Below are positions 5,883-63,193 of a stretch of 64,000 nt of DNA, piece after piece. The position numbers were made by a program, and so were the translations under genes. Every line of letters begins with the position of its first letter. The first letter of the stretch is position 1. This DNA is from Alphaproteobacteria bacterium (lineage in GTDB: Bacteria; Pseudomonadota; Alphaproteobacteria; Caedimonadales; UBA9215), in NCBI GenBank assembly GCA_009993885.1, contig JAACSN010000002.1, forward strand, positions 69,979 through 133,978. Reading direction: 5' to 3'. The notes below the pieces were generated by a model. The model was not told the DNA's origin. It made no database searches and saw only the letters and a program-made list of their open reading frames with translations.

Positions 5883-7172
5883 TTAAGCCACCTTTGCAAT
5901 TTCTGCCAGCGCCTTTTTTGCATCGGAATCACTGATATGTTTTTGAGACTGAAGCTTTAGGCGCAAACTATGCCGAATGTTCTCTTTTTGCTCCGGCGTC
6001 GCCTCCAAGCGATGGATCATATTTTTAATATGCAACCCCATATGTCCTTGGATAATACCTTCGGATACAAGGGCTCTGAGAGCCCCTAAGTTTTGCAGCA
6101 AACCGACACCGGCAATCAAACAAGACAACTCGTTAGAACTTGGATTTCCCAGACATTTCAAGACCAACTGCGCCGTCGGATGGCGGCGTGTGACGCCTCC
6201 TACCGTCCCGACGGCAATGGGGCCTTTAAAGGTTCCAACCAAATCAGCACCTTGCATCTGCCATGTTGCCAGCGGTGCGTAAGAGGACGTTGCATCCTTC
6301 GTTGCTCCATAACTGTGCAACCCCGCTTCAACGGCTCGCCAGTCATTTCCCGTGGCAATCACAACAGCATCAATGCCGTTCATAATCCCTTTATTGTGGG
6401 TTGCCGCTCGATAAGGATCACATATCGCGAAATGAGACGCTTCTTCAATTTTATGTCCCAGTTCGGGATCAATATTTTCAAGAACAAGGTTAGCCGTTAT
6501 AAGTTTTTGATCGGTTAGGTTAGAGAGAATGCAAAGGGTCACCTTTTCATCGGTTTTTGCTTCAATATAGGGTTTTAAAAACTCACAAACTTGGGTGACT
6601 TGATTGGCTCCCATAGCCTCACAAGGATTAAGGCGGACGTGCAAAACGCCCATAACGCCCGAATCCTTTTGACGAGACAAGAGACGGAGATTAATGTCCG
6701 TCACCCCTCCTCCTCTTTGAAAAAGAGTAGCCGCAGGCCCCTTATTTGCAAGGTCAATCCATTCTCGAGTGGCGTCCCGAACGTGCCGTTGAAACCTTTC
6801 AGGATCCTTTAAGCTTGCAATTTGGATTTGCCCGATAACGGTTTGATCTTTTTGATCGCCGTTTATATGAGCTGTCAGCCGGCCGGAGCGCTCAACCCAC
6901 GAGGCCGTTTTATTGAGCGCCGCCACAACGGATGTTTCTTCTATTGCCAAAGGCACACAATAGGTTTCGCCGTTCATTGTAAGAGATTTTACAAGCCCTA
7001 GGGGAAGAGCAAAATAACCGAAGGGAGCTTCAATAAAGGCTTCGGCAAGCTCTAGATTTTGAGCCGGTGTTTCCAAAGCTTCTTTAATTTCCAAAAGGGA
7101 TAAACCTGTTTTTTCAACAAGGTAGTGCAAACGGTCTTCCAGGGTATAGCACGAGAATGCCTTAGGAGGCAT
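5883..7172 (-). CDS. mvaA: HMG-CoA reductase, class II
   Basis: Class II motifs AIEETSVVAA, CEAMGANQV and GTVGG. The ~430-aa soluble form has no membrane domain. Its start overlaps the mvaS stop by 11 nt (ATGCCTCCTAA). Confidence 0.85.
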   Translation of the reverse strand: MPPKAFSCYTLEDRLHYLVEKTGLSLLEIKEALETPAQNLELAEAFIEAPFGYFALPLGLVKSLTMNGETYCVPLAIEETSVVAALNKTASWVERSGRLTAHINGDQKDQTVIGQIQIASLKDPERFQRHVRDATREWIDLANKGPAATLFQRGGGVTDINLRLLSRQKDSGVMGVLHVRLNPCEAMGANQVTQVCEFLKPYIEAKTDEKVTLCILSNLTDQKLITANLVLENIDPELGHKIEEASHFAICDPYRAATHNKGIMNGIDAVVIATGNDWRAVEAGLHSYGATKDATSSYAPLATWQMQGADLVGTFKGPIAVGTVGGVTRRHPTAQLVLKCLGNPSSNELSCLIAGVGLLQNLGALRALVSEGIIQGHMGLHIKNMIHRLEATPEQKENIRHSLRLKLQSQKHISDSDAKKALAEIAKVA

Positions 7173-8337
7173 GGCGGAACCCTCGCTTATTTTGCAACAA
7201 TTCAGCAGCCGGAAATCCGCTTTTCACGGCCTGATTGCGCGTCCTGAAAGAGTCATAATCTTGAGCGCTTAACCGAGTCCTTTGAGAAAAATCCTCCTGA
7301 AGATCCTGAGCCCACGCCGCCGCCTGTGCCTCGGGTCCTGCGGTTAAGAGTTGTAATTCCGCACCACAGCCGGAACCGTAGGAAAAGGCACTAATTTGCT
7401 CGCCGATTCGTCGACCGCAAAGGTTTTGGGCAACAGAAAACCAAAGACTTGCCGTCATAGAGTTGCCGATTTTTTGATTCCAAGTCAGATGGGGTGCAAC
7501 CTTTTCAAGGAAAAGCTCTTTTGCCTTGTTCGGATTTCCTGCGGTAATTTCAGCTTTCTCACAAAGAACACCCAAGGCTTTTTGTACCATTTTAGGAAAA
7601 GGCGTATGAAAACTCATCCCCTTAATATTTTCAAGGAAATTCCCAAGGGTTTGGTTTGTGTCCTCACAATAGGCTTGAAAGCAAGCCAAAGCACCTTGGT
7701 TATAACATTCAAGACTTAAGGGGCCGTCCACATGGGGGTAAGGCTCTCCGACAGGGCGCCAAAAATCATCGGCAGGACGACTCCAAGAATGGGAACAAGG
7801 ATCCATTTCAGCGATTAAAGGCTCATCCACAATCATGGCAACGGCTCCGGCACCTTGGGTCGGCTCTCCGGGGCTTCTCGCCTCGTAAAGGGTATCATCC
7901 ACAGCAATCACAAGGGCTGCTTTTCCTTTTGAGGCCGGCGAACAGCGCCACTCATAGGCCTGACGTAAAGCAAGGGTTCCGCCAAGGCACGCATGCTTTA
8001 CTTCATAGGAACGCAGCGCGCCTGACAATCGCAACTCTCGAGCCACCCATTTGGTCAAAGGAGCACTCATATCTAATCCGGATTCGGTTCCGATAGCCAA
8101 AAAACCAATTTGATCGAGCCCCCCCTTTCGGCGCATAAGTGCGCGCCGCGCAGCCCCAAGGGCAAGGTCAACAACCGTGTGTTGGTCAAGGCATAAAGCC
8201 ATTTCACGGCAACCCAGACCGATTTCGTACTTATTCGGATCTGTATTTCGTAAGTGTGCAAAATCCTTTAAATCTAAAAAGAACGATGGAATTTTCAAGC
8301 CAAGAGAGGCAATACCGACGGGTTCGGATAGGCGCAT
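7162..8337 (-). CDS. mvaS: HMG-CoA synthase
   Basis: Thiolase-fold condensing enzyme with the catalytic-Cys context EVKHACLGGTLAL. It is ~390 aa and directly coupled to mvaA. Confidence 0.85.
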   Translation of the reverse strand: MRLSEPVGIASLGLKIPSFFLDLKDFAHLRNTDPNKYEIGLGCREMALCLDQHTVVDLALGAARRALMRRKGGLDQIGFLAIGTESGLDMSAPLTKWVARELRLSGALRSYEVKHACLGGTLALRQAYEWRCSPASKGKAALVIAVDDTLYEARSPGEPTQGAGAVAMIVDEPLIAEMDPCSHSWSRPADDFWRPVGEPYPHVDGPLSLECYNQGALACFQAYCEDTNQTLGNFLENIKGMSFHTPFPKMVQKALGVLCEKAEITAGNPNKAKELFLEKVAPHLTWNQKIGNSMTASLWFSVAQNLCGRRIGEQISAFSYGSGCGAELQLLTAGPEAQAAAWAQDLQEDFSQRTRLSAQDYDSFRTRNQAVKSGFPAAELLQNKRGFRHAS

Positions 8338-10383: not shown

Positions 10384-10809
10384 AATTTCCGTCTTTAAAA
10401 GAAACGTCCTCCTATCAAAGGGGGGCATTTCATCAACAGGATTTCTTTCCTTTCAAAAATACTCTCTTTGTGCTGTAAAAATAAATTCCCTTTCTTTTTC
10501 ATAAAAATTTTTTTTTGCATATTTTTTTTCCGATTTATTAGAATCCTTTAAAAACTTAAGGATTTTTGAAGCAATTTTAGGTCTTCCTACAAAGGCTAAC
10601 TCTTTGACATCCCTTGCGAAAAGGAAATTCGAGACTATTTTTCAGTCTCTTTTCTATTAGAAATAATTGTTTCTAAAATTAACCTTCTGTTAACATCTTT
10701 TTTTGCTTTTTAATTAAAAAAATCCATAATATTTACTTCTTTTTAATAAAGTTGCTGTTTAATGAAACTATGCAATAAGGCAAAACCCAGAAAAAAATAG
10801 GGGGAAAAC

Positions 10810-12708
10810 ATGACAACTATACAACAGAAACTGGAAGTAGTACGTCCGCCACGGGTGAAAATCAGGTATGATGTTCACACAGCAGGGGCTATCGTCGTTA
10901 AAGAACTACCGTATGTTCTTGGCATCATGAGCGACCTGTCTTGCCAATCAGAAGTGCCAAAAGCACCATTCCGTGATCGCAAGTTCGTTGATGTTAGACC
11001 GGATACCTTAACAGATATCATGGAATCTATTCGTCCGAAGGCAATTTTCAATGTTCCGAATCGTTTTACAGAAAAGGGAAAAATTTCCATTGATCTTCTT
11101 TTCTTAACCATTGATGATTTCGAGCCCATTTCCATCATCAATCAAGTTCCCGAGATGAAAGTAAAGTTTGAATCACGTGTTAAACTGAACGATCTTCTTG
11201 CGAAACTTGACGGTAACGCCGATTTGAACGTCGTTATGGATGCGGTTCTTGCCGGTGAATCCAAAACAGCGGATCAAATTGTTGAAGAAGGAAAAATGAT
11301 TCGTGAAGACGCTCAGAAAGCTTATGCTCTTGAACTTGTCGAAGAATTCTTGACTAAAATTGCGAAAGCCGGCGAACATAGCAGTGCTATCACAGCCGTT
11401 AGTGCGGAAGTTGGCCAAATTGACCTAGACCTCTCAGAGCAACTGGACGAAATTCTTCATGCTCCGGAGTTCCAAAAAGTCGAAGGCACATGGCGCGGCT
11501 TGTTCTATCTGGTAACAGGAACGGACATCGGCGCACGTGTTAATGTTCGTTTGTTCAATACCACAAAACAAGAATTGGCTTACGACCTTGAAAAAGCTGT
11601 TGGTTTTGACCAAAGCCAGCTCTTTAAAAAAGTCTATGAAGAAGAATACGGTACCTTTGGCGGTAATCCTTATTCCTTCTTGATGAGTGACTTTGAATTT
11701 AGCCGTACGCAATTCGATATCGAACTTCTTGGTAAAATTTCAGAAGTGTCAGCCGCTGCCCTTGCTCCTTTCATTGCAGGCGCAAACCCCGGTTTGATTG
11801 ATCTTGATACCTTTACGAACCTCGGAAACATTCGCGACGTTGCGACAGTCTTCCAAAGCACAGAACTCGGTAAATGGATGAGCTTCCGTGAGACAGACGA
11901 ATCTCGCTATGTAGCCCTTACTCTTCCTCACGTTTTGTCCCGTGCCCCTTATGGCAAGGACACAAATCCTGTGGACGGTATGAACTACGAAGAGGGCGTT
12001 GACGGAACAGACAACAGTAAATTCTCTTGGATGAGCTCTGCTTGGGCCATGGCCTTGAGAATTCTTGAAGCCTGTAACATGCACGGCTGGCCTGTGGCAA
12101 CACGGGGTGTTGAAAACGGCGGTCTCGTTCGAGGTCTTCCTTACTACACCTTTAAAACAACAGACGGTGATGTTGCTTTGAAATGCCCGACTGAAGTTGC
12201 AATTACGGATCGTCGTGAAAAAGAATTGTCAGACCAAGGTTTGATCGCTCTTGTTCACTGTAAGAACCGTGACTATGCGGCCTTCTTCGGATCACAAACC
12301 ACTCATAAGCCTCTGTTGTATAATACGGACGAAGCCAACTCTAACTCACAGTTATCTGCTCGTTTGTCTTACATCATGGCTGCCAGCCGCTTTGGTCACT
12401 ATATCAAAGTGATGATGAGAGATCGCATCGGTAGCTTTATGGAACGTGAAGATGTTGAAAGATATCTTAACGGTTGGCTTGCCCAATACATCTTGCTTAA
12501 TGCCCGCCCAACGGAAGGTATGAAAGCCAAGTATCCTTTGAAAGCAGGTCGTGTAGATGTGGTTAATGTGCCCGGAGATCCCGGAAACTATAAAGCGGTC
12601 GTGTTCTTACGTCCACACTTCCAACTTGAAGAATTAACAGCATCCCTTCGCTTGGTTGCAGATTTGCCCAAACCTTACCACGAGCAAATCTTGTCCGATC
12701 TGGCTTAA
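10810..12708 (+). CDS. tssB-tssC: Fused T6SS contractile sheath protein (an N-terminal TssB/VipA module joined to TssC/VipB in one ORF)
   Basis: Residues 1 to ~150 match TssB (RVKIRYDVHTAGAIVVKELPYVLGIMSDL; DRKFVDV; LFLTIDDFEPISIINQVPEM). The rest matches TssC (LDEILHAPEFQKVEGTWRGL; EEEYGTFGGNPYSF; APFIAGANP; RYVALTLPHVL; PTEVAITDRREKELSDQGLIAL; LRPHFQLEE). The ORF is uninterrupted, with GGGGAAAAC upstream of the ATG. Confidence 0.85.
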   Translation: MTTIQQKLEVVRPPRVKIRYDVHTAGAIVVKELPYVLGIMSDLSCQSEVPKAPFRDRKFVDVRPDTLTDIMESIRPKAIFNVPNRFTEKGKISIDLLFLTIDDFEPISIINQVPEMKVKFESRVKLNDLLAKLDGNADLNVVMDAVLAGESKTADQIVEEGKMIREDAQKAYALELVEEFLTKIAKAGEHSSAITAVSAEVGQIDLDLSEQLDEILHAPEFQKVEGTWRGLFYLVTGTDIGARVNVRLFNTTKQELAYDLEKAVGFDQSQLFKKVYEEEYGTFGGNPYSFLMSDFEFSRTQFDIELLGKISEVSAAALAPFIAGANPGLIDLDTFTNLGNIRDVATVFQSTELGKWMSFRETDESRYVALTLPHVLSRAPYGKDTNPVDGMNYEEGVDGTDNSKFSWMSSAWAMALRILEACNMHGWPVATRGVENGGLVRGLPYYTFKTTDGDVALKCPTEVAITDRREKELSDQGLIALVHCKNRDYAAFFGSQTTHKPLLYNTDEANSNSQLSARLSYIMAASRFGHYIKVMMRDRIGSFMEREDVERYLNGWLAQYILLNARPTEGMKAKYPLKAGRVDVVNVPGDPGNYKAVVFLRPHFQLEELTASLRLVADLPKPYHEQILSDLA

Positions 12709-12742
12709 GGCTCATGCAATAAAAAAATAAAGGAGAAAAATA

Positions 12743-13345
12743 ATGGCACAAGTACTAACAGAACAAGCCGTAGGTCTACCGCTAGAAAGGATTTCCGGCA
12801 CAGCACACGGCTCTGAAGCCTGGGCTAGCAACCGTGTCGGCGAGCAATATGCCGGCGCAACGAAATCCGGTAATGTCTTTTGTAAGATTGAAATCGCCGG
12901 AAACGTTGTGACTAAGTCTGAAACGGAAGGATTTGAAGAGTGGACGACCCTTGCCTCTATGAATATCTTGGATATCGTGCGGCAAACCAATCCTAATCCG
13001 ACCAACGATAAAATCGAATCAGGTCGTGTGATTGTTCAAAACACACCTCTTTTGATTCCACACGAAGGAAACTCCATTGACCTTGCAAAGGCTCTCATTG
13101 ACGGATCACAAGTTAATGTCTATGTCACACGTATCGGTCACTTCAAAGGAGAGCAAAGATTGCCTATTGAAGAGTACACTTTTACAAACTGTGCAATTCA
13201 AAGGCTTCAGGATAAAGGAGATATGCTCTCTGTTACTTTCCGAGCAACAATCATCAAGAAAATTATCAACTCTTATGATAAAGAAGGAACAAAGCTAGGT
13301 ACTGCCGAGTTCACTTATGATCTTGCTCTAAACAAAGTTGAGTAA
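12743..13345 (+). CDS. hcp: Hcp-like T6SS inner-tube protein with an N-terminal extension of ~40-45 aa
   Basis: An AAGGAG RBS lies upstream. From about residue 45 the sequence follows the Hcp pattern (VFCKIEIAGNVV..E..EW; a later block EYTFTNCAIQRLQ; C-terminal SVTFRA...EFTYDLALNKV). It occupies the position between the sheath gene and tssE. Confidence 0.6.
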   Translation: MAQVLTEQAVGLPLERISGTAHGSEAWASNRVGEQYAGATKSGNVFCKIEIAGNVVTKSETEGFEEWTTLASMNILDIVRQTNPNPTNDKIESGRVIVQNTPLLIPHEGNSIDLAKALIDGSQVNVYVTRIGHFKGEQRLPIEEYTFTNCAIQRLQDKGDMLSVTFRATIIKKIINSYDKEGTKLGTAEFTYDLALNKVE

Positions 13346-13375
13346 TAAACTATCCGTATCCGCTTATCATTATGT

Positions 13376-13415
13376 GGGCTTGAAAATCTTAAAAAGGGTT
13401 TTCAAGCCCCTTTCA
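13376..13415 (+). terminator. Perfect 11-bp stem hairpin after hcp (a possible partial terminator or attenuator)
   Basis: GGGCTTGAAAA (13376-13386) pairs with TTTTCAAGCCC (13399-13409) across a 12-nt loop. Only a short, weak T-tract (CTTTC) follows. Confidence 0.5.
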
Positions 13416-13488
13416 TGAAAAGCTTTTTAGAGAGGTAAAGTCTATGAATATCCGACAGAAAAAAAAGAGATTTGAAAAAGGAGCCCCG

Positions 13489-13932
13489 ATGCCCCTTTTT
13501 GATCGTTTAATTGACGAAGAACCTCACATTCGCAATGAACTTATTACAAAGAATTTCCTGCATGATGAAGAACTTCAACTTTCCATCGGTCAAGAACTCT
13601 CTAATATTTTAGACACCAGAATTGGTTCGGATGTAGATTGGCCGGAAGACTCGGATCATGACGCTGTGTTCTTGCCCGAGCAGTTTGGCTTACGAGACTA
13701 TGCGGGACTTTTTGCTCAATCGGACAGCGGCAAGCGAGAAATTGCCTCTCACGTTCGAGCAGCGATCTTACGCTTTGAACCTCGTTTACAAAACCCGCGG
13801 GTTCAAATTACCGAAGCTCATGCAGAAAGGTTTGATGTGACCGTTGCGATTACCGGAGATGTTGTCATTGATGACATCCGCAAAAAAGTTCAGTTTCCCA
13901 TGATCTTGCACAACATTATGACACGCGTCTAA
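13489..13932 (+). CDS. tssE: T6SS baseplate wedge protein TssE (gp25/GPW family)
   Basis: Motifs PLFDRLIDEEP, ELSNILDTRIG, FGLRDY and AILRFEPRLQNPRV. I prefer the ATG at 13489, which is preceded by AAGGAG; the alternative start is 13444. Confidence 0.8.
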   Translation: MPLFDRLIDEEPHIRNELITKNFLHDEELQLSIGQELSNILDTRIGSDVDWPEDSDHDAVFLPEQFGLRDYAGLFAQSDSGKREIASHVRAAILRFEPRLQNPRVQITEAHAERFDVTVAITGDVVIDDIRKKVQFPMILHNIMTRV

Positions 13933-14025
13933 TATGCCCGCCCCCTCATCATGCTCTTTTGGCGACATATAGTCATTCCAAACGCTTCCCGGACGTCCTC
14001 GTCGGCGTCTGCCTTTTTAAAAAGA

Positions 14026-21735: not shown

Positions 21736-23145
21736 ATGATTAAAGCACTATCTAAAACGCTATTTATTACTTTTTTTCTCTTTAATTTCATCAAAATCAA
21801 CCCTCTTTATGCAAGCTCAGAAGAAAAATTAGACAAAAAAACAGTTCCTTTTCATTTTAAACTGGGCGCCGGTGATCCTACGGTAGCAAACGATAACGGC
21901 ACTGAAGCCAATTTATTCATGTTTAATATACCCTGCGTGGTGTCTCCGGATACGTCAAAGTGGTTCCCTTTAGGGTTCGATACGACGCGTACTGTAAAAC
22001 ACCATATGGGTGCTCTTCCAAGCCTGTCTCTCAACCCGACTACGAATATTTTTTTAGAGCACCTCCAATTGGCTTTCTTACCGCAAATTAAAAAGGGAGG
22101 AAGACTCTCACAAGAAGAAACCATTTTCTCTAAAACCTTTAATAGGCTCATGCCAAATGATCCGACAGGTCATGTCGGATGTCACTTTTATATGCCGGAA
22201 GAAATAGCAGAGGGCGCCGGAATCGTCTTACTTTTACCCGGCAGTAAAGGCGCACGGTTTTCTGAAATTGATCGTGCATTAGCCTATGCAAGGCAAGGGA
22301 TACCCTGCCTCATTCCTGACTTTATCTCAACAGCCAAAACAAATAAAACACTCCGCGGGAACTCTACTATTCAAAATCAGCTTGCGGTCAGTTTTTTTGG
22401 AAACGCCCTAAGTATCCTTTTGCTCCATCATGTTCTCCAAGACTGGGATGCTATCGACCCGACAAAAATTGTTTGGGACTGTGAATCTATCGGTGCAACC
22501 CAAGCGCTTCTTGCTCTTTCCCCGGAAGTTATCGCCAAATTCGAAGAAGATTTTATTCCCCCTACCTTTATAGCCCTGAATGATTTTGCCCCTGTTTTAA
22601 TAACAAGCGGCATACAAGACTCTCCTTTTTGGACTATTCCTAAAACGATTTGGGGCGGGACGGCAGACGAATTTACGCCTCTTTCACAGATTGAAGACTT
22701 TTTAAGTCGTGGTCCTGAGATACAAGCAACAACCCTTATAAAACATGACGGTTACCATGATGCACGCTCCCTTGATGAGGATACACTCCATCAAGAAGGC
22801 GGCACCTATGAGCTTAAAGATGCAACGAATTATACGGGACTTTGTGCTTATATGACACCCTCTGTAGACGAGGTCAGAAAAACCGTTGAGGGCCTCGACA
22901 TTGGCGCAGAGGAAGGGGAGATTATGGGCGCACTTGAAATCCCTTTTAATAACTCCAGGCTCCATTTAGAATTAGAAAATGTCGACCTTGCCCCTCAAGA
23001 AGTAGCGCGTCGTGTTACTCAATTACCGAAGGGGGCAATTTTCGGCCCTACATCAAAGGAAAAAGCTGATGAATTGCGAAGTGAGGTCATAGCTGCTGTT
23101 CTGAAATACGCCAAGCCTTCTCTTGAAGACGCAATAGACTTTTAA
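21736..23145 (+). CDS. Hypothetical secreted protein (469 aa)
   Basis: Has a GGAGG RBS and an N-terminal signal peptide (LFITFFLFNFIKINPLYASS). I recognise no motif securely, and a possible hydrolase-like core is only a guess. Confidence 0.5.
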   Translation: MIKALSKTLFITFFLFNFIKINPLYASSEEKLDKKTVPFHFKLGAGDPTVANDNGTEANLFMFNIPCVVSPDTSKWFPLGFDTTRTVKHHMGALPSLSLNPTTNIFLEHLQLAFLPQIKKGGRLSQEETIFSKTFNRLMPNDPTGHVGCHFYMPEEIAEGAGIVLLLPGSKGARFSEIDRALAYARQGIPCLIPDFISTAKTNKTLRGNSTIQNQLAVSFFGNALSILLLHHVLQDWDAIDPTKIVWDCESIGATQALLALSPEVIAKFEEDFIPPTFIALNDFAPVLITSGIQDSPFWTIPKTIWGGTADEFTPLSQIEDFLSRGPEIQATTLIKHDGYHDARSLDEDTLHQEGGTYELKDATNYTGLCAYMTPSVDEVRKTVEGLDIGAEEGEIMGALEIPFNNSRLHLELENVDLAPQEVARRVTQLPKGAIFGPTSKEKADELRSEVIAAVLKYAKPSLEDAIDF

Positions 23146-27293: not shown

Positions 27294-28019
27294 ATGTTTT
27301 ATAAAGTTATTTTCGCAATCACTCTTGTTATCTCTCTTATATCCGACGCCTCACTCAATGCTTCTTCTAGCGTGCAGCCTGAGGATGAAGTCCTCTATAA
27401 AAAAGCCGTAAATCTTAGACAGCTGGGAAATCTTACGGATGCTAAAGAAATTTTCAATGGCCTCCTCTTTTCTAATGCTCCGGAGCTTGTGAGGAAATCA
27501 ATGCACAATCTAGGCACAATATCCTATAGGCAGGAACTTTATGAAGAAGCGGCCTGTTGGTTTTCAAGTGCATCACAATTTTCCTTAGAAAAATTAAAAG
27601 AAACATTCCAACCCTCTCTTAATAATCTCGATACTCTCAGGAAATTGGGTTTGATCTCCAAAGAAGTAACTTTTATCGGCTCTGATTCCTGTTCTATTCG
27701 TTGGAATTGGTCGAGACAGTTTCTTTTAAAAAACGGTAACACCCTAAATCATAGGTGCAATAGAATTGAAATAACCGAAGGTTACGGAGATATCCCAAAA
27801 AACCAAAAGCTACCTACTTTTATAATAACGGAAGATATTATTTCTTTACCCGGCTCGGTTTTGGCCGGCATTCAATTAAAAACTCTCCTTGTCTTATCTT
27901 ACAACATGACAGAAGAAAACTTCGAATTAGCTTTACGGGAAGCAGGACTTTATGCAGGGGAAAATCACTCGACCATGCTTGCCCATATTACCAAATTTAG
28001 CTACGAACTCGGTCTTTGA
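27294..28019 (+). CDS. Hypothetical secreted protein with a TPR/Sel1-like N-terminal region
   Basis: Has a signal peptide (VISLISDASLNASS) and TPR-like helices (YKKAVNLRQLGNLTDAKEIF...EEAACWF). Confidence 0.5.
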   Translation: MFYKVIFAITLVISLISDASLNASSSVQPEDEVLYKKAVNLRQLGNLTDAKEIFNGLLFSNAPELVRKSMHNLGTISYRQELYEEAACWFSSASQFSLEKLKETFQPSLNNLDTLRKLGLISKEVTFIGSDSCSIRWNWSRQFLLKNGNTLNHRCNRIEITEGYGDIPKNQKLPTFIITEDIISLPGSVLAGIQLKTLLVLSYNMTEENFELALREAGLYAGENHSTMLAHITKFSYELGL

Positions 28020-34107: not shown

Positions 34108-35523
34108 TTATAACCTTTTTTTTGTAAACCAAAGAACAAGATCATCATCTAGGCGAACTGTATCGCCTGGTTTTGGAAATGAGTAGTCACATGTGATGCC
34201 TTCTCCATCGGGAATATAGCCACGCTTTACGTACAGTCTTTGTGCAGCACCATAATCCTTATAAAGGCCAACACCTATACCGATAGTAGAGGACCGTTCA
34301 GCTGCTTCCTTTTCTGCAACATCTAGCAATTGAGACCCTATGCCTTTGTTTCTAAAAAGAGGTAATACGTTAAGGTCCATAATCTCTGGAATATTATTTT
34401 CTTGAAATGGTCTATACTGAGATTGCCACTTAAGGGTAATATACCCTGCGCAATTGCTTCGATCATAAGCAACCCAACATACTCTTTCACCTGATTTTTG
34501 TTCTGCAAGGTAAGTTTCAAAAGTTGATTTTGGTTTTTCAAGCCTTTGAGATTTAAATCTAGAAACTAATTGATCAACATCTGAGTCGGTTAATTCTCTT
34601 ATTTCAAAATTTTTTTTCTGGGGAAAATTACTCTCTACCCATTGAAAAACAGTTGTGTCTTTATCGACCTTAAACAAATGACTCTTGCTGCCATAACCTG
34701 CATGAATTTCTTTCAGCTCAACCGATTTTGGAATAATCTCTCGGATTTTACATAGGTCGTCTTGGATTCTTTGAGTATGAAGAACAGCTTTTAATTCAAT
34801 GCCAAAATCTGATGTTGGTTTTACTCCTGGGGAATCAAAGATTCTTAATTCATGCTCATGCTTCCAAATGTCAAGTTTATTGCCAAAGTTTCCCATATCA
34901 TTGAAATCTTTTTCAGCCCATCTAAGCGCACCTATGTTTGTTTGTTCACAACGGAGCCTATCAACATAATTCACTGCATTTATTAAGGAGCCTTTATCGA
35001 CTTCTTGCTCATATAGCAAAGCCAATCCTTTTAGGCTGTCGGCGTAATATGCATAGAGTAGTTGTGCCCAAGGTGTTTGAAAAATTTTGATATCGGAGCA
35101 ACTAAAAATACCAACAGATGTGTACGCAATGTTTTCAACAAGGAAACGTAACCATTTTTCAAAATCTTCATCTGTAAACTGTCTGTCAAAGCATTGAAGA
35201 AAACCCTGAAAATCATCAAAAATTTCAGAAAAGTCCTTTATAGACTGGCTTGTATATCTGCTCATTTTAAGGTTTTCAACAAGAGCAGCACGATCTGAAT
35301 GATCACCAAAAAGTTTTTCTACAACCTTTTTGATCCGATCTCTTCCCTGCTCATAGGCATCAATATAATCCGGTGCCATGTAATAAAATTCGTTGTAATC
35401 ATTTAATTCATAGGCAGTGGAAAACTTGATGGTCTTGTTTTTTAGGGAGCGATATGTGTTTTCATTCCAAGGCACAAATTTAACAAATAATTGAGTGTTT
35501 TTATTCATTTTTATCTCTCGCAA
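34108..35523 (-). CDS. Two-domain protein: an N-terminal DUF2971-like domain fused to a C-terminal GNAT acetyltransferase
   Basis: The N-terminal ~300 aa show the DUF2971 pattern (LFVKF...KTIKFSTAYELNDYNEF; VGIFSCS...WAQLLYAYYADS; WKHEHELRIF). The C-terminal ~165 aa show a GNAT core (VLPLFRNKGIGSQLLDVAEKEA; AQRLYVKRGY). Confidence 0.7.
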   Translation of the reverse strand: MREIKMNKNTQLFVKFVPWNENTYRSLKNKTIKFSTAYELNDYNEFYYMAPDYIDAYEQGRDRIKKVVEKLFGDHSDRAALVENLKMSRYTSQSIKDFSEIFDDFQGFLQCFDRQFTDEDFEKWLRFLVENIAYTSVGIFSCSDIKIFQTPWAQLLYAYYADSLKGLALLYEQEVDKGSLINAVNYVDRLRCEQTNIGALRWAEKDFNDMGNFGNKLDIWKHEHELRIFDSPGVKPTSDFGIELKAVLHTQRIQDDLCKIREIIPKSVELKEIHAGYGSKSHLFKVDKDTTVFQWVESNFPQKKNFEIRELTDSDVDQLVSRFKSQRLEKPKSTFETYLAEQKSGERVCWVAYDRSNCAGYITLKWQSQYRPFQENNIPEIMDLNVLPLFRNKGIGSQLLDVAEKEAAERSSTIGIGVGLYKDYGAAQRLYVKRGYIPDGEGITCDYSFPKPGDTVRLDDDLVLWFTKKRL

Positions 35524-35619
35524 TCATCAATTTCTTCAAAACATTCTGCCCCTTTTTTCGTCAAAAGGCCACTATGGAACTCTTGGTTTGCTATCATTTC
35601 TTTGAGCTCTATGAGCCCG

Positions 35620-35915
35620 CCGAGGAAGAGGGGCGTTAGGACGAATTTAATTGCGGCTAAGCGCAGTAAAGAACTGTTAGCCCCCGTTTTTATAAGGGGG
35701 TCAACGTCGGCGGCTTGGTTCAACCAATGGTTCGAGGAGCACCTTTTGAAAGAATTGAACCTTCATGCCACAGTCCTTACGGATAATGCCGCCTTTCATA
35801 AAAAAGAGGAAATCCGTGCGTTAGCTGAAAAGAAGGACGCAAGGTTTTGTTCTCACCGCCCTATCCTCGGGAATTTAATCCCCTTGAACAAGATTTTGCC
35901 ATGACCCTAAACACC
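35620..35915 (+). pseudogene. Decayed IS630/Tc1-mariner-type DDE transposase C-terminal remnant
   Basis: LIAAKRSKELLAPVFIRGSTSAAWFNQWFEEHLL...VLTDNAAFHKK matches the IS630 catalytic region. The final block PPY.REFNPLEQDFA is readable only after a frameshift and is cut off by the hsdR 3' end. There is no N-terminal half, and I saw no inverted repeats. Confidence 0.6.
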
Positions 35916-38900
35916 CCGGTACTTCTCGAAGAACAATTTCAGTTTTTCAAGAACAATCATCTTTTTCTTAGATCGCATATTATCCTTATCAAACATAGAG
36001 ACAGGCGGTAAAATGCTTGCAAAACCTGTTCCGGTCGGTTTTAGCTCACCATCCCGGAAGGCATTTGCGATAAACTTCTTAGTTTTTTCCGGCTTGAGGT
36101 TTTCCTCTTTAATAATTTTATCGAGTTCCTCAGCTCTATTTTTATCGGTAAAGGAATGCCAATCATTATCAACATCAGAGTGAACGTTGAGGGTATTAAT
36201 AAATCGCTCAATTAATTCTTTTTTGCTCCGCAGTTCAAGACTTGAATCCATCGCCCTGCCAATGGTAGTCATAATATCTTGATCATCCATACGAGATTTA
36301 TGATATTGGGCGACAAGCTGAAGAATATAATCAATGTTGACGGTAACTTGCTTAACCAGCTCTATTTCAAATTCAATGTCATCATTTATGTTTTCTTTAT
36401 TAGACTCATTGTAGCGACGATGCTTATCATAGAGATCAAGATAAGCACTCTGATAGTCTTGGAAATCCCGCTCTGATAGAATTTCATTTCCGGAAAATTC
36501 ATCAAAGGATGTCAGAATATTACGAAGCCTTAGAATTGCGCCCCAAAGTTTAATAAAATCCTTTTCAGCTTGTTCTCCTTCAATAAATACCGGCAGCGGG
36601 AAAAAATCTTGGAGCTCTGTTATTAAATCAACATAACCTTTTTGAGGCTTGCCGTCTTTTTCCCAGCCGTTGTAATACTCGTCAAACGATTTTAATAGAA
36701 CAACACCGCCGGCTTCTTTATTGCCGAAAATAGAAAGGGCGTCGTTTGTGGCTTGTTCAAGGTCTCGAAAACAAATGATATTTCCGAATGTTTTCACCGA
36801 GTTTAAAATACGGTTTGTTCTTGAGAAAGCCTGAAGAAGCCCATGGTGGCGCAGACTCTTATCTACCCATAATGTATTCAGGGTCGTCGCATCAAACCCC
36901 GTCAAAAACATATTAACGACGATCAGCAAATCGATTTCTCTATTCTTCATACGTTGAGAAAGGTCTTTGTAGTAATTTTCAAACTTATCTGCACCGGTAT
37001 TGTAGCTTGTACCAAAATGCTTGTTATAGTCACCGATCGCCATATCCAAGAAGTCACGGGATGATTGATCTAAGTTACCTGTATCAAAGTCTTCATCAGG
37101 GAGGATTCCATCCTCATCATCTTCTTCATTTGCTCCAAAACTAAAGATGGTAGCTATTTTTAATCCTGAATCTCGTGACTTAAATTCAGTGTAGTATTTC
37201 TTCGCCACTTCAATCGAACTAACCGCAAAGATTGAATTGAACCCCTTAAGGCGTACTTGATTTCTAATTTCTTTGATTTTCTCTGTGGAACTTTTATCTT
37301 CACTTGAAACGACCTCAGCAATGTTGCTGAGCTTACTGAAGGAATAACTACCGACATTGCGCTTGGTCTTTTGTTCGAAATGCTCAAGGATATAATTGGT
37401 GACTTGTGAGATGCGTTTCGGTGAATTGGCTGCAGCTTCCATATCAATAGCCTGAACTTTTTTATCCTTCACCCCCTCTTTCATTTTTAGGGTGTTGGTG
37501 TACTCAACTCTAAAGGGCAATACGTTTCCATCATTGATCGCATCAACAATAGTATATGAATGGAGTTTTTTCCCAAAGGCTTGCTCTGTTGTTTTCAGGT
37601 GCGGATTACCGCCGGAAGGGGAATTTGCCGTAAAAATGGGTGTACCTGTAAAACCAAAGATGTGATATTTCTTGAACGCTTTTGTGATAGCCCTGTGCAT
37701 CTCACCAAATTGGGATCGGTGACATTCATCAAAAATCAAAACAATATGCCCGTCAAAAACGCTGTGCCCCTTATGGGCAGAAATAAAATTGGCGAGTTTT
37801 TGAATGGTAGTGATAATGATTTTGGCATTCGGATTAGCCAGCTGTTTCGTTAGAACAGCTGTACTAATGTTAGAGTTGGCCGACCCCTTTTGAAACTTAT
37901 CGTATTCCTTCATAGTTTGGTAATCGAGGTCTTTACGGTCAACCACAAATAGCACCTTATCTATACCGTCAAGGCGGGTGGCAAGCTGTGCAGCTTTAAA
38001 GCTGGTGAGTGTTTTACCACTGCCTGTGGTGTGCCAGATATAGCCACCTGCATCAATCGTGCCGAGCTGTTTATGATTGGTGGACATGGCAATGCGATTC
38101 ATAATCCGCTCGGTCGCTGCAATCTGATAAGGGCGCATGACAAGCAAGAGTTTGTCAGAGGTGAAAACACAATATTTCGTTAGAATTGAAAGCAGTGAGT
38201 GCTTAGAGAAAAATGTCTTGCCGAAATCTACAAGGTCAGAAATACGCTTGTTCCTGGCATCTGTCCACCAGCAAGTGAATTCAAAGCTATTGCCGGTTTT
38301 CTTGCCGGACTTTCGGCCTTTCTGTTCTTTCAGGTGCGCGTTGTGGGTCGTATTAGAATAGTATTTGGTATGCGTGCCGTTGGAAATCACAAACAGTTGC
38401 ACATAGTCAAATAAGCCGCTATCTGCCCAAAAGCTATCTCGTTTGTAACGGTTGATCTGGTTAAAGGCTTCGCGGATGGCGACGCCTCGTTTTTTCAGCT
38501 CTACATGTACCATGGGCAAGCCGTTAACGAGGACAGTGACATCATAACGGGTCTCGCGTGCACCTACGGCCTCATACTGGTTAATAACCTGCACGCTATT
38601 GTTGTGGATGTTATCCTTGTCCAGAATACGTACATTTTTGGTCGAGCCGTCATCGCGCTTAAGGTTGAAAATATAATCTTCCTGAACCTTGGCGGTTTTC
38701 TCTTCAAGGCCTTCATTTTTATTGGCCAAATAGTTGCTTAAAATCTGCTGCCATTCATTTTCTGAAAACTCAATGTCATTGAGTTTTGAAAGCCGAGCAC
38801 GCAGGTTTTTCAGCAAGTCATCATTTTTGGTGATATTAAGGTATTCATAGCCATTTATCTCAAGCAGGCGAATAAACTCAAGCTCTAACTCATTTTCAGA

Positions 38901-38990
38901 TTGGTAGTGTGTTGCCACCTTTTTGTCGGGGATATATTCGGCAACAACCGTGCTATTCGGATTTTCGGCAATGGTGTTATAGGTGCACAT
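35907..38990 (-). CDS. hsdR: Type I restriction enzyme R subunit (helicase/endonuclease)
   Basis: 1027 aa, with SF2 helicase motifs (HTTGSGKT, DECHRSQ, TGTPIF), an N-terminal nuclease region, and an ATG overlapping the hsdS stop. Confidence 0.95.
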   Translation of the reverse strand: MCTYNTIAENPNSTVVAEYIPDKKVATHYQSENELELEFIRLLEINGYEYLNITKNDDLLKNLRARLSKLNDIEFSENEWQQILSNYLANKNEGLEEKTAKVQEDYIFNLKRDDGSTKNVRILDKDNIHNNSVQVINQYEAVGARETRYDVTVLVNGLPMVHVELKKRGVAIREAFNQINRYKRDSFWADSGLFDYVQLFVISNGTHTKYYSNTTHNAHLKEQKGRKSGKKTGNSFEFTCWWTDARNKRISDLVDFGKTFFSKHSLLSILTKYCVFTSDKLLLVMRPYQIAATERIMNRIAMSTNHKQLGTIDAGGYIWHTTGSGKTLTSFKAAQLATRLDGIDKVLFVVDRKDLDYQTMKEYDKFQKGSANSNISTAVLTKQLANPNAKIIITTIQKLANFISAHKGHSVFDGHIVLIFDECHRSQFGEMHRAITKAFKKYHIFGFTGTPIFTANSPSGGNPHLKTTEQAFGKKLHSYTIVDAINDGNVLPFRVEYTNTLKMKEGVKDKKVQAIDMEAAANSPKRISQVTNYILEHFEQKTKRNVGSYSFSKLSNIAEVVSSEDKSSTEKIKEIRNQVRLKGFNSIFAVSSIEVAKKYYTEFKSRDSGLKIATIFSFGANEEDDEDGILPDEDFDTGNLDQSSRDFLDMAIGDYNKHFGTSYNTGADKFENYYKDLSQRMKNREIDLLIVVNMFLTGFDATTLNTLWVDKSLRHHGLLQAFSRTNRILNSVKTFGNIICFRDLEQATNDALSIFGNKEAGGVVLLKSFDEYYNGWEKDGKPQKGYVDLITELQDFFPLPVFIEGEQAEKDFIKLWGAILRLRNILTSFDEFSGNEILSERDFQDYQSAYLDLYDKHRRYNESNKENINDDIEFEIELVKQVTVNIDYILQLVAQYHKSRMDDQDIMTTIGRAMDSSLELRSKKELIERFINTLNVHSDVDNDWHSFTDKNRAEELDKIIKEENLKPEKTKKFIANAFRDGELKPTGTGFASILPPVSMFDKDNMRSKKKMIVLEKLKLFFEKYRGV

Positions 38991-40150
38991 TATGCAGCCT
39001 CCTTAAAGGTGAGGAGTTTATTGCGGTAATATTCATATTGCTGACGACGGGCCGTGATTTCCGCAGGCAATCCGTTGGAAATATCGTTCACCAACGCGTC
39101 AAATTTATCGAGAATTTCAACAATACGTTCTTGCTCTTCAAGGGGTGGGATAGAGACTATTGGCGCTTGTAAAATATGGTATGACACAAATGGCTGAGAG
39201 CCACTGTTTGCCTTCGATCTAAAATCCTGTAGTAGCAAGAGATAGTAGCCATATTGTGATATTACTTCTTCAGATTTCATCCTACAGATTACCCCATTAT
39301 ATGTTACAAAATGTTTTCCCTTGCCCCAATTGACAATGCCAGCGTATGCACCAATGTGACCAATCACAGGTGAATTTTCACTGTTGTATTCATTATGGCT
39401 ACCGACAATTCCATTGCTGCCATAGACAGAATATTCCCCTCCAATTTTAGGAATAGTATTCCCTGTTCCATATTGAAAATCATATATATCTCCTAGAGGA
39501 ATTTTTTTAACACCTTCCCCATCAAACCTCAGTAATTCATCTCGATAGTGGGTGTATTGTTGTTGACGCGCCTCCAGCTCTGCCTCCAGCTCTGCCTCCA
39601 GCTCTGCCTCCAGCATGGTAAACTTATCAAGAATGTCAATAATCTCTTGCTGTACCGGCAGAGGTGGAACGGGAAACTTAAAGCGCTTGAAACCTACCAT
39701 ATTAACAGAGGAAAAACTTGACTTTTCTGTATTTGCAAGGCACCAATTATCAAGTACAAAGCAGTAATAGTAGACAAAGCGCATATCCAGTTTCGTAGAA
39801 AACTCCGGTTTCAGAGAAAGAGATGTAAACCTTTGATTTGATAAGTGCGGCACTGTGATTAGGGCGTGTTCGCCTATGGTTGCAGAAGTTGCGATAATAA
39901 TTGAATTGGCTGGGAACAGTCGGCCACCTTTCACAGCCTCTTTTGTAATTTGTTGTAATGATTCGCTTAAAATTGTTCCGTTCTTGCGAATGTCATCCAT
40001 TCGAAACCAAGGCACAGTTCCATCTATCCAAAAAATTTTATTTGATTTGGAAGGCGTATATCCGTTTTTTGTCTCAAAAATCTCTTGAAGCCCTTTATAC
40101 ACCACTCCATCAGGACAGTGCTTATTGATCAACTCATCAATTCTGCTCAT
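38990..40150 (-). CDS. hsdS: Type I R-M specificity subunit HsdS
   Basis: Two target-recognition domains are separated by a central conserved helix (QQEIIDILDKF...RQQQYTHYRDELL), with a matching distal helix (EEQERIVEILDKF...RRQQYEYYRNKLL). Confidence 0.9.
   Translation of the reverse strand: MSRIDELINKHCPDGVVYKGLQEIFETKNGYTPSKSNKIFWIDGTVPWFRMDDIRKNGTILSESLQQITKEAVKGGRLFPANSIIIATSATIGEHALITVPHLSNQRFTSLSLKPEFSTKLDMRFVYYYCFVLDNWCLANTEKSSFSSVNMVGFKRFKFPVPPLPVQQEIIDILDKFTMLEAELEAELEAELEARQQQYTHYRDELLRFDGEGVKKIPLGDIYDFQYGTGNTIPKIGGEYSVYGSNGIVGSHNEYNSENSPVIGHIGAYAGIVNWGKGKHFVTYNGVICRMKSEEVISQYGYYLLLLQDFRSKANSGSQPFVSYHILQAPIVSIPPLEEQERIVEILDKFDALVNDISNGLPAEITARRQQYEYYRNKLLTFKEAA
39571..39614. repeat. 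12-bp tandem repeat (about 3.7 copies) inside the hsdS central conserved region
   Basis: CCTCCAGCTCTG occurs three times, followed by a partial copy. On the coding strand this encodes LEAELEAELEAELEA. Confidence 0.9.
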
Positions 40151-49740: not shown

Positions 49741-49866
49741 TAATTTTTCCTCGTAATTTTTTATAAACGAAACACACTCTAAAAAATGCGTGCCTATCCA
49801 TCAACATAAGCCCCTTATATTATAAATCAAAACCAAAAACTCTTCTCCGACTAAATTAGGCAAAAA

Positions 49867-49884
49867 TGTGATTTTTTTATCACA
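49867..49884. promoter_or_regulatory. Perfect palindrome TGTGAT-N6-ATCACA in a divergent promoter region
   Basis: The sequence is TGTGATTTTTTTATCACA. It lies between the OMP gene and the large Wzy_C-like gene. Confidence 0.35.
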
Positions 49885-49975
49885 CAAAGACCCTCTCAAA
49901 GAGAGCTCATTGAAAAAATATAATTTTCCGATAGGATGGGGAAATCTATCTCCATAAATGTAAAATATAAAACAG

Positions 49976-62713: not shown

Positions 62714-62790
62714 TGGTGCACCCTGCAGGATTCGAACCTGCGACCTGCGGCTTAGAAGGCCGACGCTCTATCCGGCTGAGCTAAGGGTGC
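62714..62790 (-). tRNA. tRNA-Arg (anticodon UCU), CCA encoded
   Basis: Manual fold of the reverse complement: acceptor GCACCCT/AGGGTGC, D arm GCTC..GAGC, anticodon loop CTTCTAA, T arm GCAGG-TTCGAAT-CCTGC. There is one mismatch at the top of the anticodon stem. Confidence 0.85.
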
Positions 62791-63193
62791 ACATATTAAC
62801 TTGATTATACATACCTCATTGTTACCAAAAGGTAAAGACCTTGGTCTTTTGATATATAACGGCACAATATCTTGATTGAGCCCCTTACCTTTCCCTTTCT
62901 CTATTACCCGGTTTCCATTTCTGCAAAAGAGACTCTCTTTTACAGGATAGAGCATTTAAAATAGATAAAAATACCGGCTTATAGTATGACTTTTACGGTG
63001 AGTCTCTACATTTCTCAGCTACCGACATAGATATCGTCGCCGGCGTCTGATGCAAACAAAAATCTAACCCGACCGGAGTATAAGCCTTTAATAAACCGAT
63101 GCGATTTCCACGGGTTCTACTTTACCGTCCATGGTCGCTATATTTGCATCATGCTCTGCTTCATGGTCTAATAATTCATTTCTACTCGGCTTT

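What the first reader, a model, noticed from the sequence alone, without database searches (positions are those of the whole stretch)
10810..13932. Orphan three-gene T6SS module (sheath, tube, TssE) embedded among housekeeping genes
Seen: tssB-tssC fusion, an hcp-like gene and tssE lie in one direction, bounded by trxB upstream and a convergent O-antigen-ligase gene downstream. Nowhere in the 64 kb is there a recognisable tssA, tssF, tssG, tssK, tssJ/L/M, vgrG, PAAR or clpV gene. Established: a functional T6SS needs about 13 core components, usually clustered. Inference: the remaining genes may be dispersed elsewhere (a split locus). Alternatively, this could be a reduced contractile apparatus using non-canonical partners, or a decaying remnant. 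The intact long ORFs and good RBSs argue against decay.
Basis: partly seen in the sequence, partly recalled or inferred. Interest (0 to 1): 0.6.

Follow-up and report, generated by a model that had tools for sequence, protein, structure and literature searches.

The report
Sheath-tube-TssE module of split T6SS

Summary
Window 10810-13932 encodes a single-chain TssB-TssC sheath protein (632 aa), a divergent Hcp tube protein (200 aa) and TssE (162 aa). I confirmed the Hcp by profile search and predicted fold. No other T6SS family is detectable in the 64 kb, nor in about 10 kb beyond each end.

The module is not orphan or decaying. The organism is a Holosporales alphaproteobacterium. The literature (PMC8163844, PMC11909080) states that this group keeps its T6SS core genes at four or more loci in a conserved arrangement, including [tssB-tssC-hcp].

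- **Conservation:** relatives carry the same isolated module in different housekeeping contexts.
- **Selection:** dN/dS against a syntenic sister species is 0.03-0.10, like cox1 and trxB.
- **Other modules:** a metagenome contig with the window's composition (tetranucleotide r=0.98) carries an isolated tssF-tssG pair. So does the named genome Ca. Paracaedibacter symbiosus.

The tssB-tssC fusion is real and conserved in this lineage, but it is not unique. Fused proteins dominate the best hits in a 1.8-billion-protein library. I found no paper that discusses the fusion.

Verdict: a new member of a known kind, low to moderate interest. Whether this exact genome has the remaining modules, and whether it has ClpV, could not be tested.

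The parts
10384..10809 (+). AT-rich 426-nt intergenic region upstream of tssBC. It presumably holds the operon promoter. The ribosome-binding site GGGGGA ends 6 nt before the ATG.
   Evidence: Sequence read. A sigma-70-like match lies at 10639-10667, but promoter-like matches are no more frequent than in shuffles, so the promoter is inferred, not shown.
10810..12708 (+). tssBC: single-chain T6SS contractile sheath protein. The TssB part is about residues 4-149 and the TssC part about residues 154-622, joined by only about 4 residues.
   Evidence: Pfam and NCBIfam. PDB sequence search: residues 4-149 align to 9n4v_B 5-151 of 187, and residues 154-622 align to 9n4v_A 20-490 of 493, E 1e-179. Junction alignment. 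dN/dS 0.026 against L086.
12743..13345 (+). Divergent hcp (tssD) tube gene, 200 aa. It has a roughly 40-residue N-terminal extension and a conserved loop at residues 76-99, both modelled with low confidence.
   Evidence: Pfam hit is sub-threshold. Family profile A1 hits PDB Hcp entries 7fcf, 9qpe and 3v4h at E 1e-4 to 5e-3. AF2 model pLDDT 62.7, pTM 0.60. Foldseek against PDB: the best 50 are all Hcp-containing entries, best E 2.7e-8, TM (target-normalised) up to 0.80. The same profile finds the gene right after tssC in canonical loci. dN/dS 0.10.
13376..13409 (+). 15-bp stem-loop in the hcp-tssE spacer, followed by a U-rich stretch. It is a candidate attenuator or mRNA-stabilising hairpin that would lower tssE expression relative to the sheath and tube genes.
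   Evidence: RNA fold of 13346-13443: -29.9 kcal/mol, z = -4.7 against shuffles. The stem is conserved in sister species L086 while its flanks vary. Function is inferred only.
13444..13932 (+). tssE: gp25-like baseplate wedge subunit, 162 aa.
   Evidence: TIGR03357 73.3 bits (cutoff 53.2) and PF04965 51.6 bits. dN/dS 0.032.
13990..14011 (+). Terminator-like GC-rich hairpin plus T-run, 58 nt after the tssE stop, between the convergent tssE and waaL-like genes.
   Evidence: Pattern scan. The number of such sites is not above the shuffle expectation, so this is suggestive only.

Best explanation
This is the tail-tube/sheath/wedge operon (tssBC-hcp-tssE) of a functional but genomically dispersed type VI secretion system. 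The host is a Holosporales (Paracaedibacter/Caedibacter-like) intracellular alphaproteobacterium.

The three products would work as follows:
- Hcp hexamers stack into the inner tube.
- The single-chain TssB-TssC protein polymerises around the tube as the contractile sheath.
- TssE is the gp25-like wedge protein that joins the sheath to the baseplate.

The other core parts are encoded at other chromosomal sites, as in other members of the order. These are the TssF/G/K baseplate, the TssJ-like/L/M membrane complex, TssA and the VgrG spike. The machine is thought to deliver effectors to the eukaryotic host.

Shown here: the identity of the three genes, their isolation from other T6SS genes, their conservation and their purifying selection.

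Inferred: that the rest of the system is present in this exact genome, that the genes are expressed, and that the fused sheath assembles and contracts like a two-chain sheath.
For: Gene identity.

Taxon: the TssBC fragment of 'Holosporales bacterium UBA9215' is 94% identical (L067). Members of the same 90% cluster are named Holosporales bacterium.

Literature:
[quoted passage not shown] They are transcribed in Ca. Bodocaedibacter.
- PMC11909080 says the T6SS is conserved in almost all sequenced Holosporineae genomes.

Same isolated module in relatives, with different housekeeping flanks:
- L001, L002, L003
- L086, fully syntenic
- L087
- L057

Selection: dN/dS against L086 is 0.026 for tssBC, 0.10 for hcp and 0.032 for tssE. 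Controls are trxB 0.038 and cox1 0.020. TssBC is 97.9% identical where Cox1 is 94.8%.

Other modules:
- L094 carries flgI-flgK-flgL-fliW-tssF-tssG-LysR. Its tetranucleotide correlation with the window is 0.981. Window chunks against the rest of the window give 0.954-0.979, and the sister species gives 0.936.
- Ca. Paracaedibacter symbiosus has an isolated tssF-tssG pair.
Against: The remaining core genes were not demonstrated in this exact genome. L094 is linked to it by composition only. My protein-level searches for its TssF failed.

No expression data exist for this organism.

No ClpV/TssH is listed for the Holosporales system in PMC8163844, and the review calls the system 'non-standard'. 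Full functionality is therefore assumed from conservation, not shown.

Promoter and terminator matches are not above chance.
Confidence: 0.85

Rival explanations
1. Reduced, self-contained contractile device: the three genes work with non-canonical partners and the genome has no other Tss core genes.
For: No other T6SS family lies within about 82 kb around the module. Several nearby ORFs have no family assignment at all, and one of them (469 aa) has a homologue directly upstream of tssBC in L087.
Against: Related genomes do hold the other core genes at separate loci (PMC8163844; tssF-tssG in Ca. Paracaedibacter symbiosus). A contig with the window's composition holds tssF-tssG. A sheath, tube and one wedge protein alone have no spike, baseplate or membrane anchor.
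Confidence: 0.07
2. Decaying remnant of a once complete T6SS cluster in a reducing endosymbiont genome.
For: The genome appears to be from an obligate symbiont lineage with streamlined genomes. The module is isolated from other T6SS genes.
Against: All three ORFs are intact and have ribosome-binding sites. dN/dS is 0.03-0.10, equal to essential housekeeping genes. The module is kept intact across relatives down to about 50-60% identity and in different genomic contexts. The exact protein recurs unchanged on dozens of metagenome contigs.
Confidence: 0.03
3. Part of a phage-tail-like particle (eCIS, tailocin or prophage tail) rather than a T6SS.
For: TssE/gp25, sheath and tube are shared by all contractile injection systems. 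A single-chain sheath is the phage/eCIS condition.
Against: The sheath scores far above the trusted cutoffs of the T6SS-specific equivalog models TIGR03355 and TIGR03358. It is about 60% identical to a solved T6SS sheath (9n4v). TssE passes the T6SS equivalog TIGR03357. The tube's best structural matches are all T6SS Hcp. There are no phage, tape-measure, baseplate or tail-fibre genes nearby.
Confidence: 0.02

Closest known systems
Dispersed T6SS of Holosporales endosymbionts (Ca. Bodocaedibacter vickermanii, Paracaedibacteraceae, Caedimonadaceae; PMC8163844)
   Same: Same bacterial order. The same [tssB-tssC-hcp] module is isolated from the other core genes. The Hcp is divergent and recognised only as 'Hcp-like'. 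tssF-tssG sits as a separate pair.
   Different: Here tssB and tssC are one ORF and tssE is appended to the module. The paper lists tssB and tssC as separate genes and does not place tssE in the module. Other Holosporales (L057, L068, L070) have unfused genes.
Canonical proteobacterial T6SS-i clusters (for example the sheath solved in PDB 9n4v, V. cholerae VipA/VipB, Burkholderia clusters L024-L049)
   Same: Sheath domains are homologous end to end (E 1e-179 to 9n4v TssC). The gene order tssB, tssC, hcp, tssE is the same as at the start of many canonical clusters.
   Different: Canonical clusters continue with tssF, tssG, clpV and so on; here the module stops after tssE. Relative to 9n4v, the acidic C-terminal tail of TssB (about 36 residues) and the first roughly 19 residues of TssC are missing. 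The 'LLDxI'-type N-terminal TssC helix that recruits ClpV (PMC5048182) reads ADQIVEEGKMI and is internal.
Other natural single-chain TssB-TssC proteins (Thalassomonas sp. RHCl1 locus L019; many metagenomic proteins)
   Same: VipA+VipB+VipB_2 lie in one polypeptide of about 600-690 aa.
   Different: In Thalassomonas the fused gene sits inside a clustered T6SS locus that also holds hcp, tssF, tssG and tssK homologues within 10 kb. Linker length varies from about 4 to about 55 residues. Some metagenomic versions carry long N-terminal extensions.
Single-chain sheaths of contractile phage tails, pyocins and eCIS; ClpV-less Francisella T6SS-ii (from my own knowledge, not tested here)
   Same: The sheath is one chain, as in phage gp18-type sheaths. 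The system may work without a dedicated ClpV, as in Francisella, where ClpB disassembles the sheath.
   Different: By sequence this is a T6SS-i TssB/TssC, not a phage-type or IglA/IglB-type sheath (IglB scores only 197 bits). Absence of ClpV in this genome was not tested.

Membership tests
Type VI secretion system (T6SS-i) core machinery | TssB/TssC contractile sheath | tested here: met
   TIGR03358 126 bits (cutoff 97) and TIGR03355 620 bits (cutoff 271) in one ORF. E 1e-179 to the solved TssC 9n4v_A.
Type VI secretion system (T6SS-i) core machinery | Hcp (TssD) tube protein | tested here: met
   Sequence models fail (Pfam 17 bits below cutoff; no NCBIfam hit). The family profile hits PDB Hcp. 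The predicted fold matches Hcp in all 50 best PDB hits. The gene occupies the canonical position after tssC. Model confidence is moderate (pLDDT 62.7).
Type VI secretion system (T6SS-i) core machinery | TssE gp25-like baseplate subunit | tested here: met
   TIGR03357 73.3 bits against cutoff 53.2.
Type VI secretion system (T6SS-i) core machinery | TssF and TssG baseplate subunits in the same genome | tested here: inconclusive
   Absent from the window and its flanks. An isolated tssF-tssG pair lies on contig L094, which matches the window in composition (r=0.981), but physical linkage is not shown.
Type VI secretion system (T6SS-i) core machinery | TssK, TssL, TssM, TssJ, TssA, VgrG and PAAR in the same genome | not testable with these tools
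   Only 64 kb plus about 10 kb on each side of this genome is accessible. These genes are reported for related genomes in PMC8163844.
Type VI secretion system (T6SS-i) core machinery | ClpV (TssH) sheath-recycling ATPase and its binding helix at the free N-terminus of TssC | tested here: inconclusive
   No ClpV lies in the window. It is not listed among the components in PMC8163844. The homologous helix segment is present but internal and divergent (ADQIVEEGKMI versus LLDxI). The rest of the genome could not be searched.
Dispersed Holosporales T6SS, [tssB-tssC-hcp] module (PMC8163844) | Host genome belongs to Holosporales (Paracaedibacteraceae, Caedimonadaceae or Bodocaedibacteraceae) | tested here: met
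   94% identity to Holosporales bacterium UBA9215. Cluster mates are named Holosporales bacterium. The next relatives are Caedibacter sp. MAGs. The family within the order was not determined.
Dispersed Holosporales T6SS, [tssB-tssC-hcp] module (PMC8163844) | tssB, tssC and hcp are contiguous and separated from all other T6SS core genes by housekeeping genes | tested here: met
   for the window. The same holds in L001, L002, L003, L057, L086 and L087.
Dispersed Holosporales T6SS, [tssB-tssC-hcp] module (PMC8163844) | tssB and tssC are separate genes, as listed in the paper | tested here: not met
   They form one 632-aa ORF here and in L001-L005, L007, L008, L011, L016, L086 and L087. They are separate in L057, L068 and L070. 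This is a variation within the group, not a defining criterion of the arrangement.

The most novel reading that the evidence does not exclude
In this Holosporales lineage the T6SS sheath has reverted to a single polypeptide. The linker is minimal, and the fusion removes the free N-terminus of TssC and degrades the ClpV-recruiting helix. If the genome also lacks ClpV, the fused sheath would be a natural T6SS that is either single-use, like a phage tail, or recycled by a different route such as ClpB. That would be an adaptation of an injection machine used from inside a eukaryotic host cell.
Probability: 0.25. Interest if true: 0.5.

Novelty: new member of a known kind. Interest (0 to 1): 0.25.

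Why it matters
The T6SS is regarded as the main candidate host-interaction machine of Holosporales symbionts of protists, and no experimental data exist on how it works (PMC11909080).

This locus adds a well-conserved, widely distributed environmental member. It shows by profile and predicted fold that the supposedly missing tube protein of this group is a real but very divergent Hcp.

It also draws attention to natural single-chain TssB-TssC sheaths. These are common in sequence data, yet no paper I could search discusses them. They could be useful for structural work, or for asking how sheaths are recycled without a free TssC N-terminus.

As a genome-scan finding it is not surprising, because the split arrangement is already published.

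Tried and rejected
**1. Protein search for this organism's TssF (failed).**
- A search with the TssF of L068 gave a promising high-prevalence hit, P0110. It turned out to be a 60% GC organism with a tssF-tssG-clpV-vgrG cluster; its tetranucleotide correlation with the window is about 0.
- Cluster listings of 20 low-GC-like TssF clusters contained none of the NCBI accession series (NCP, NCQ, NCT) that mark the window's MAGs.
- A second search with a 16-sequence profile was swamped by a widespread T6SS subtype.

**2. Metagenome scan.** It returned no contig from the JGI samples known to hold the window. One contig (L094) matched by composition, and I used it as indirect evidence only.

**3. Possibility that the flanking large ORFs in relatives were TssM or VgrG.** This was rejected. 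They are Mfd, UvrB, a histidine kinase and a STAND/TPR regulator (L001 1176 aa and 654 aa; L002 1209 aa and 664 aa).

**4. Possibility that unknown ORFs in the window are divergent T6SS parts.** The candidates were the 469, 715, 406, 241 and 942 aa ORFs. None gave a Pfam or NCBIfam T6SS hit. Structure prediction was not spent on them.

**5. Promoter and terminator scans.** Matches were not above shuffle expectation.

**6. Literature searches for a described natural TssB-TssC fusion.** I found only engineered tags on TssB.

**7. Structure prediction of the fused sheath.** I did not attempt it, because homologues permitted for the alignment were not available and the sequence homology is already decisive.
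Full report
**1. What is in the sequence**

Three ORFs lie head to tail on the + strand at 10810-12708 (632 aa), 12743-13345 (200 aa) and 13444-13932 (162 aa).

The first ORF matches Pfam T6SS_VipA (residues 9-153), VipB (201-499) and VipB_2 (508-619). It also matches the NCBIfam equivalogs for the small (TIGR03358, 126 bits) and large (TIGR03355, 620 bits) sheath subunits, both far above their cutoffs. It is therefore a true TssB-TssC fusion.

The third ORF is TssE (TIGR03357 73 bits against cutoff 53; GPW_gp25).

The middle ORF gives only a sub-threshold T6SS_HCP hit (17 bits) and no NCBIfam hit. NCBI annotates it as a hypothetical protein.

Each gene has a Shine-Dalgarno-like motif. The spacers are 34 and 98 nt. 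A terminator-like hairpin follows tssE, though such pattern matches are not above chance in this region.

trxB lies upstream and a convergent Wzy_C/O-antigen-ligase-like gene lies downstream.

**2. Is the middle gene an Hcp?**

I collected 16 homologues: nine from the protein database and seven from the position right after tssC in related loci. Three lines of evidence agree.

- **Profile against solved structures.** The profile hits solved Hcp proteins 7fcf, 9qpe and 3v4h at E 1e-4 to 5e-3 over nearly their whole length.
- **Predicted fold.** An AlphaFold model built from the ten closest sequences has moderate confidence (pLDDT 62.7, pTM 0.60). Its beta core scores 70-85. Its 50 best Foldseek matches in the PDB are all Hcp-containing entries: Hcp structures plus three entries in which Hcp is a fusion partner or sits in a sheath-tube complex. 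The best E is 2.7e-8 and target-normalised TM reaches 0.80.
- **Position in other loci.** The same profile finds the ORF directly after tssC in unfused Holosporales loci (E 1e-27 to 1e-33). It also finds the canonical hcp directly after tssC in many canonical T6SS loci (E 4e-7 to 6e-3).

So the gene is a divergent Hcp. It has a roughly 40-residue N-terminal extension and a highly conserved loop (residues 76-99) that the model does not resolve.

This bears on the statement in the Holosporales review (PMC11909080) that the group apparently lacks some main T6SS components, among them the inner tube protein.

**3. Is anything else of the T6SS nearby?**

No. Precomputed Pfam annotation of all called genes on identical metagenome contigs covers the whole window and about 10 kb beyond each end. 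My own hmmscan runs on 34 window ORFs agree.

Both show only housekeeping genes, a type I restriction-modification system, an autotransporter and a few ORFs with no family hit. The housekeeping genes include lpt, the mevalonate pathway, cox/cta, acc, dnaA and mreBCD-pbp2-rodA.

**4. Whose genome is it?**

The closest genome hit is 'Holosporales bacterium UBA9215', 94% identical over the part present on its contig. The next are Caedibacter sp. MAGs at 59%.

The exact proteins occur in three NCBI MAGs labelled Alphaproteobacteria bacterium, and on about 40 contigs from many metagenomes. Members of the same 90% cluster are labelled Holosporales bacterium. GC content is 43%.

**5. What the literature already says**

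The paper on the Bodo saltans endosymbiont (PMC8163844) reports a dispersed T6SS in Bodocaedibacteraceae, Paracaedibacteraceae and Caedimonadaceae. [quoted passage not shown] The 2025 review (PMC11909080) calls the T6SS conserved in almost all sequenced Holosporineae genomes and the most credible candidate for host interaction. It has no experimental data.

The window's module is therefore the published [tssB-tssC-hcp] unit, here with tssE attached.

**6. Independent checks of that reading**

(a) *The same isolated module recurs in relatives, in different contexts.*
- L001 is flanked by mfd and a histidine kinase.
- L002 and L003 are flanked by uvrB and a STAND regulator.
- L087 is flanked by cox genes and mscL.
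- L086 is fully syntenic with the window.
- L057 is unfused.

(b) *Selection.* Against the syntenic sister species L086, dN/dS is 0.026 (tssBC), 0.10 (hcp) and 0.032 (tssE). The controls are trxB at 0.038 and cox1 at 0.020. TssBC is more conserved than Cox1, at 97.9% against 94.8% amino-acid identity. That is incompatible with decay.

(c) *Other modules.* I could not retrieve this genome's TssF by protein search. A metagenome scan with a TssF profile did return a relevant contig, L094 (CAJDWK010000035.1, 14.5 kb, 41.9% GC).
- Its tetranucleotide profile correlates with the window at r=0.981.
- Window chunks of 14.5 kb against the rest of the window give 0.954-0.979.
- The sister species L086 gives 0.936.
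- L094 carries flgI, flgK, flgL, fliW, then tssF and tssG, then a LysR regulator. This is an isolated [tssF-tssG] pair.

Ca. Paracaedibacter symbiosus (GCA_000757605.1) likewise has tssF-tssG alone among housekeeping genes.

The link between L094 and this genome rests on composition only.

**7. The fusion**

Relative to the closest solved sheath (9n4v), residues 4-149 align to TssB 5-151 of 187. Residues 154-622 align to TssC 20-490 of 493. About four residues replace the acidic C-terminal tail of TssB and the first roughly 19 residues of TssC.

The alignment of fused and unfused sequences shows three linker classes:
- very short linkers in the window, L001 and L002;
- medium linkers in L004, L016 and L019;
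- linkers of about 55 residues in L007, L008 and L011.

A rough neighbour-joining tree of the TssC core has no support values. It places fused and unfused symbiont sequences in one mixed clade and the fused Thalassomonas sequence outside it. This suggests more than one fusion event.

The fusion is not rare. In a phmmer search of 1.84 billion cluster representatives, at least 45 of the 150 best hits cover the query end to end in one stretch. Many more are 600-700 aa in two stretches. All ten that I scanned carry VipA+VipB+VipB_2 in one chain, some with long N-terminal extensions. One caveat applies: representatives may be biased toward the longest member of each cluster.

In Thalassomonas sp. 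RHCl1 a fused gene sits in a clustered T6SS locus with hcp, tssF, tssG and tssK homologues within 10 kb.

I found no paper that discusses natural fusions.

**8. How it most likely works**

*Established knowledge of T6SS.* Hcp hexamers stack into a tube on the VgrG/baseplate. TssB/TssC polymerises around the tube and contracts. TssE is the wedge protein in contact with the sheath.

*Inference for this locus.* The single-chain TssBC does the job of the TssB/TssC heterodimer. Joining the C-terminus of TssB to the N-terminus of TssC restores the single-chain topology of phage-type sheaths (my own knowledge).

*The ClpV-binding helix.* The TssC N-terminal helix that recruits ClpV to contracted sheaths (PMC5048182) corresponds here to ADQIVEEGKMI. 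It is internal and lacks the two leucines seen in unfused relatives such as L068 (SLLDQVIEGGRLA), whose cluster does contain clpV. No ClpV is listed for the Holosporales system in PMC8163844.

Whether this genome lacks ClpV, and how its sheath is recycled, remain open. This is the basis of the 'novel case'.

*The hairpin.* A conserved 15-bp hairpin between hcp and tssE (13376-13409) could lower tssE expression relative to the high-copy sheath and tube genes. This is an inference only.

**9. Verdict**

The arrangement is already documented for this bacterial order, so this is a new member of a known kind.

Two modest additions come out of this work. One is fold-level confirmation of the divergent Hcp. 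The other is the conserved single-chain sheath with a minimal linker, a widespread architecture that I found discussed in no paper.

Not shown: the remaining T6SS modules in this exact genome, expression, and the ClpV status.

Noticed in passing
window 13376-13409: Perfect 15-bp stem-loop in the hcp-tssE spacer, followed by a U-rich stretch (region dG -29.9 kcal/mol, z -4.7). It is conserved in sister species L086 but absent in L087, where the spacer is 12 nt. It may be an attenuator that sets the sheath/tube to TssE stoichiometry.
   Followed up: partly
window 21736-23145 (+); L087 5695-7704: A 469-aa ORF next to coxB has no Pfam or NCBIfam hit and evolves fast: about 60% identity to L086, where Cox1 is 95%. 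In L086 it appears split. Its 669-aa homologue in L087 lies directly upstream of tssBC. It could be a secreted or effector-like protein.
   Followed up: partly
window 62714-64000 and beyond (L089 11733-14667): Just past a tRNA-Arg (62714-62790), a 942-aa gene with no family hit runs off the window end. The last 1 kb has 54% GC against 43% overall. The 8.6 kb beyond the window correlates with the window at only r=0.71 in tetranucleotides. This may be foreign DNA inserted at the tRNA.
   Followed up: no
window 48490-52123: An autotransporter beta-domain protein (416 aa, - strand) lies next to a 715-aa ORF (+ strand). The 715-aa ORF has no family hit and sits in the window's strongest negative GC skew (-0.2 to -0.3).
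   Followed up: no
window 5883-8337: HMG-CoA reductase and HMG-CoA synthase (mevalonate pathway) lie in an alphaproteobacterial symbiont genome. They are conserved in synteny in the sister species L086.
   Followed up: no
window 35491-41718: A complete type I restriction-modification system (hsdM 522 aa, hsdS 386 aa, hsdR 1027 aa) lies next to a DDE_3 transposase fragment, in a small symbiont genome.
   Followed up: no
window 27294-28019: A 241-aa ORF next to dnaA gives only a weak, sub-threshold hit to the SycD/LcrH type III secretion chaperone (TPR) family (18.9 bits, cutoff 104.8).
   Followed up: no
proteins P0388, P0426, P0391, P0403, P0357: Metagenomic proteins of 900-1500 aa carry a complete TssB-TssC fusion at their C-terminus, behind 300-850-residue N-terminal extensions. 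One extension has an FGE-sulfatase domain and one has a weak TIR hit. They could be real multi-domain sheath proteins or gene-calling artefacts.
   Followed up: no
L019 9989-18756 (Thalassomonas sp. RHCl1): A free-living gammaproteobacterium has a fused 650-aa tssBC inside a clustered T6SS locus (hcp, tssF, tssG, tssK). No clpV homologue was seen within 10 kb.
   Followed up: partly
L090-L092 7644-8816: In a 60% GC organism, a gene with the eCIS_core domain (PF13699) sits between tssG and clpV in a tssF-tssG-X-clpV-vgrG cluster.
   Followed up: no
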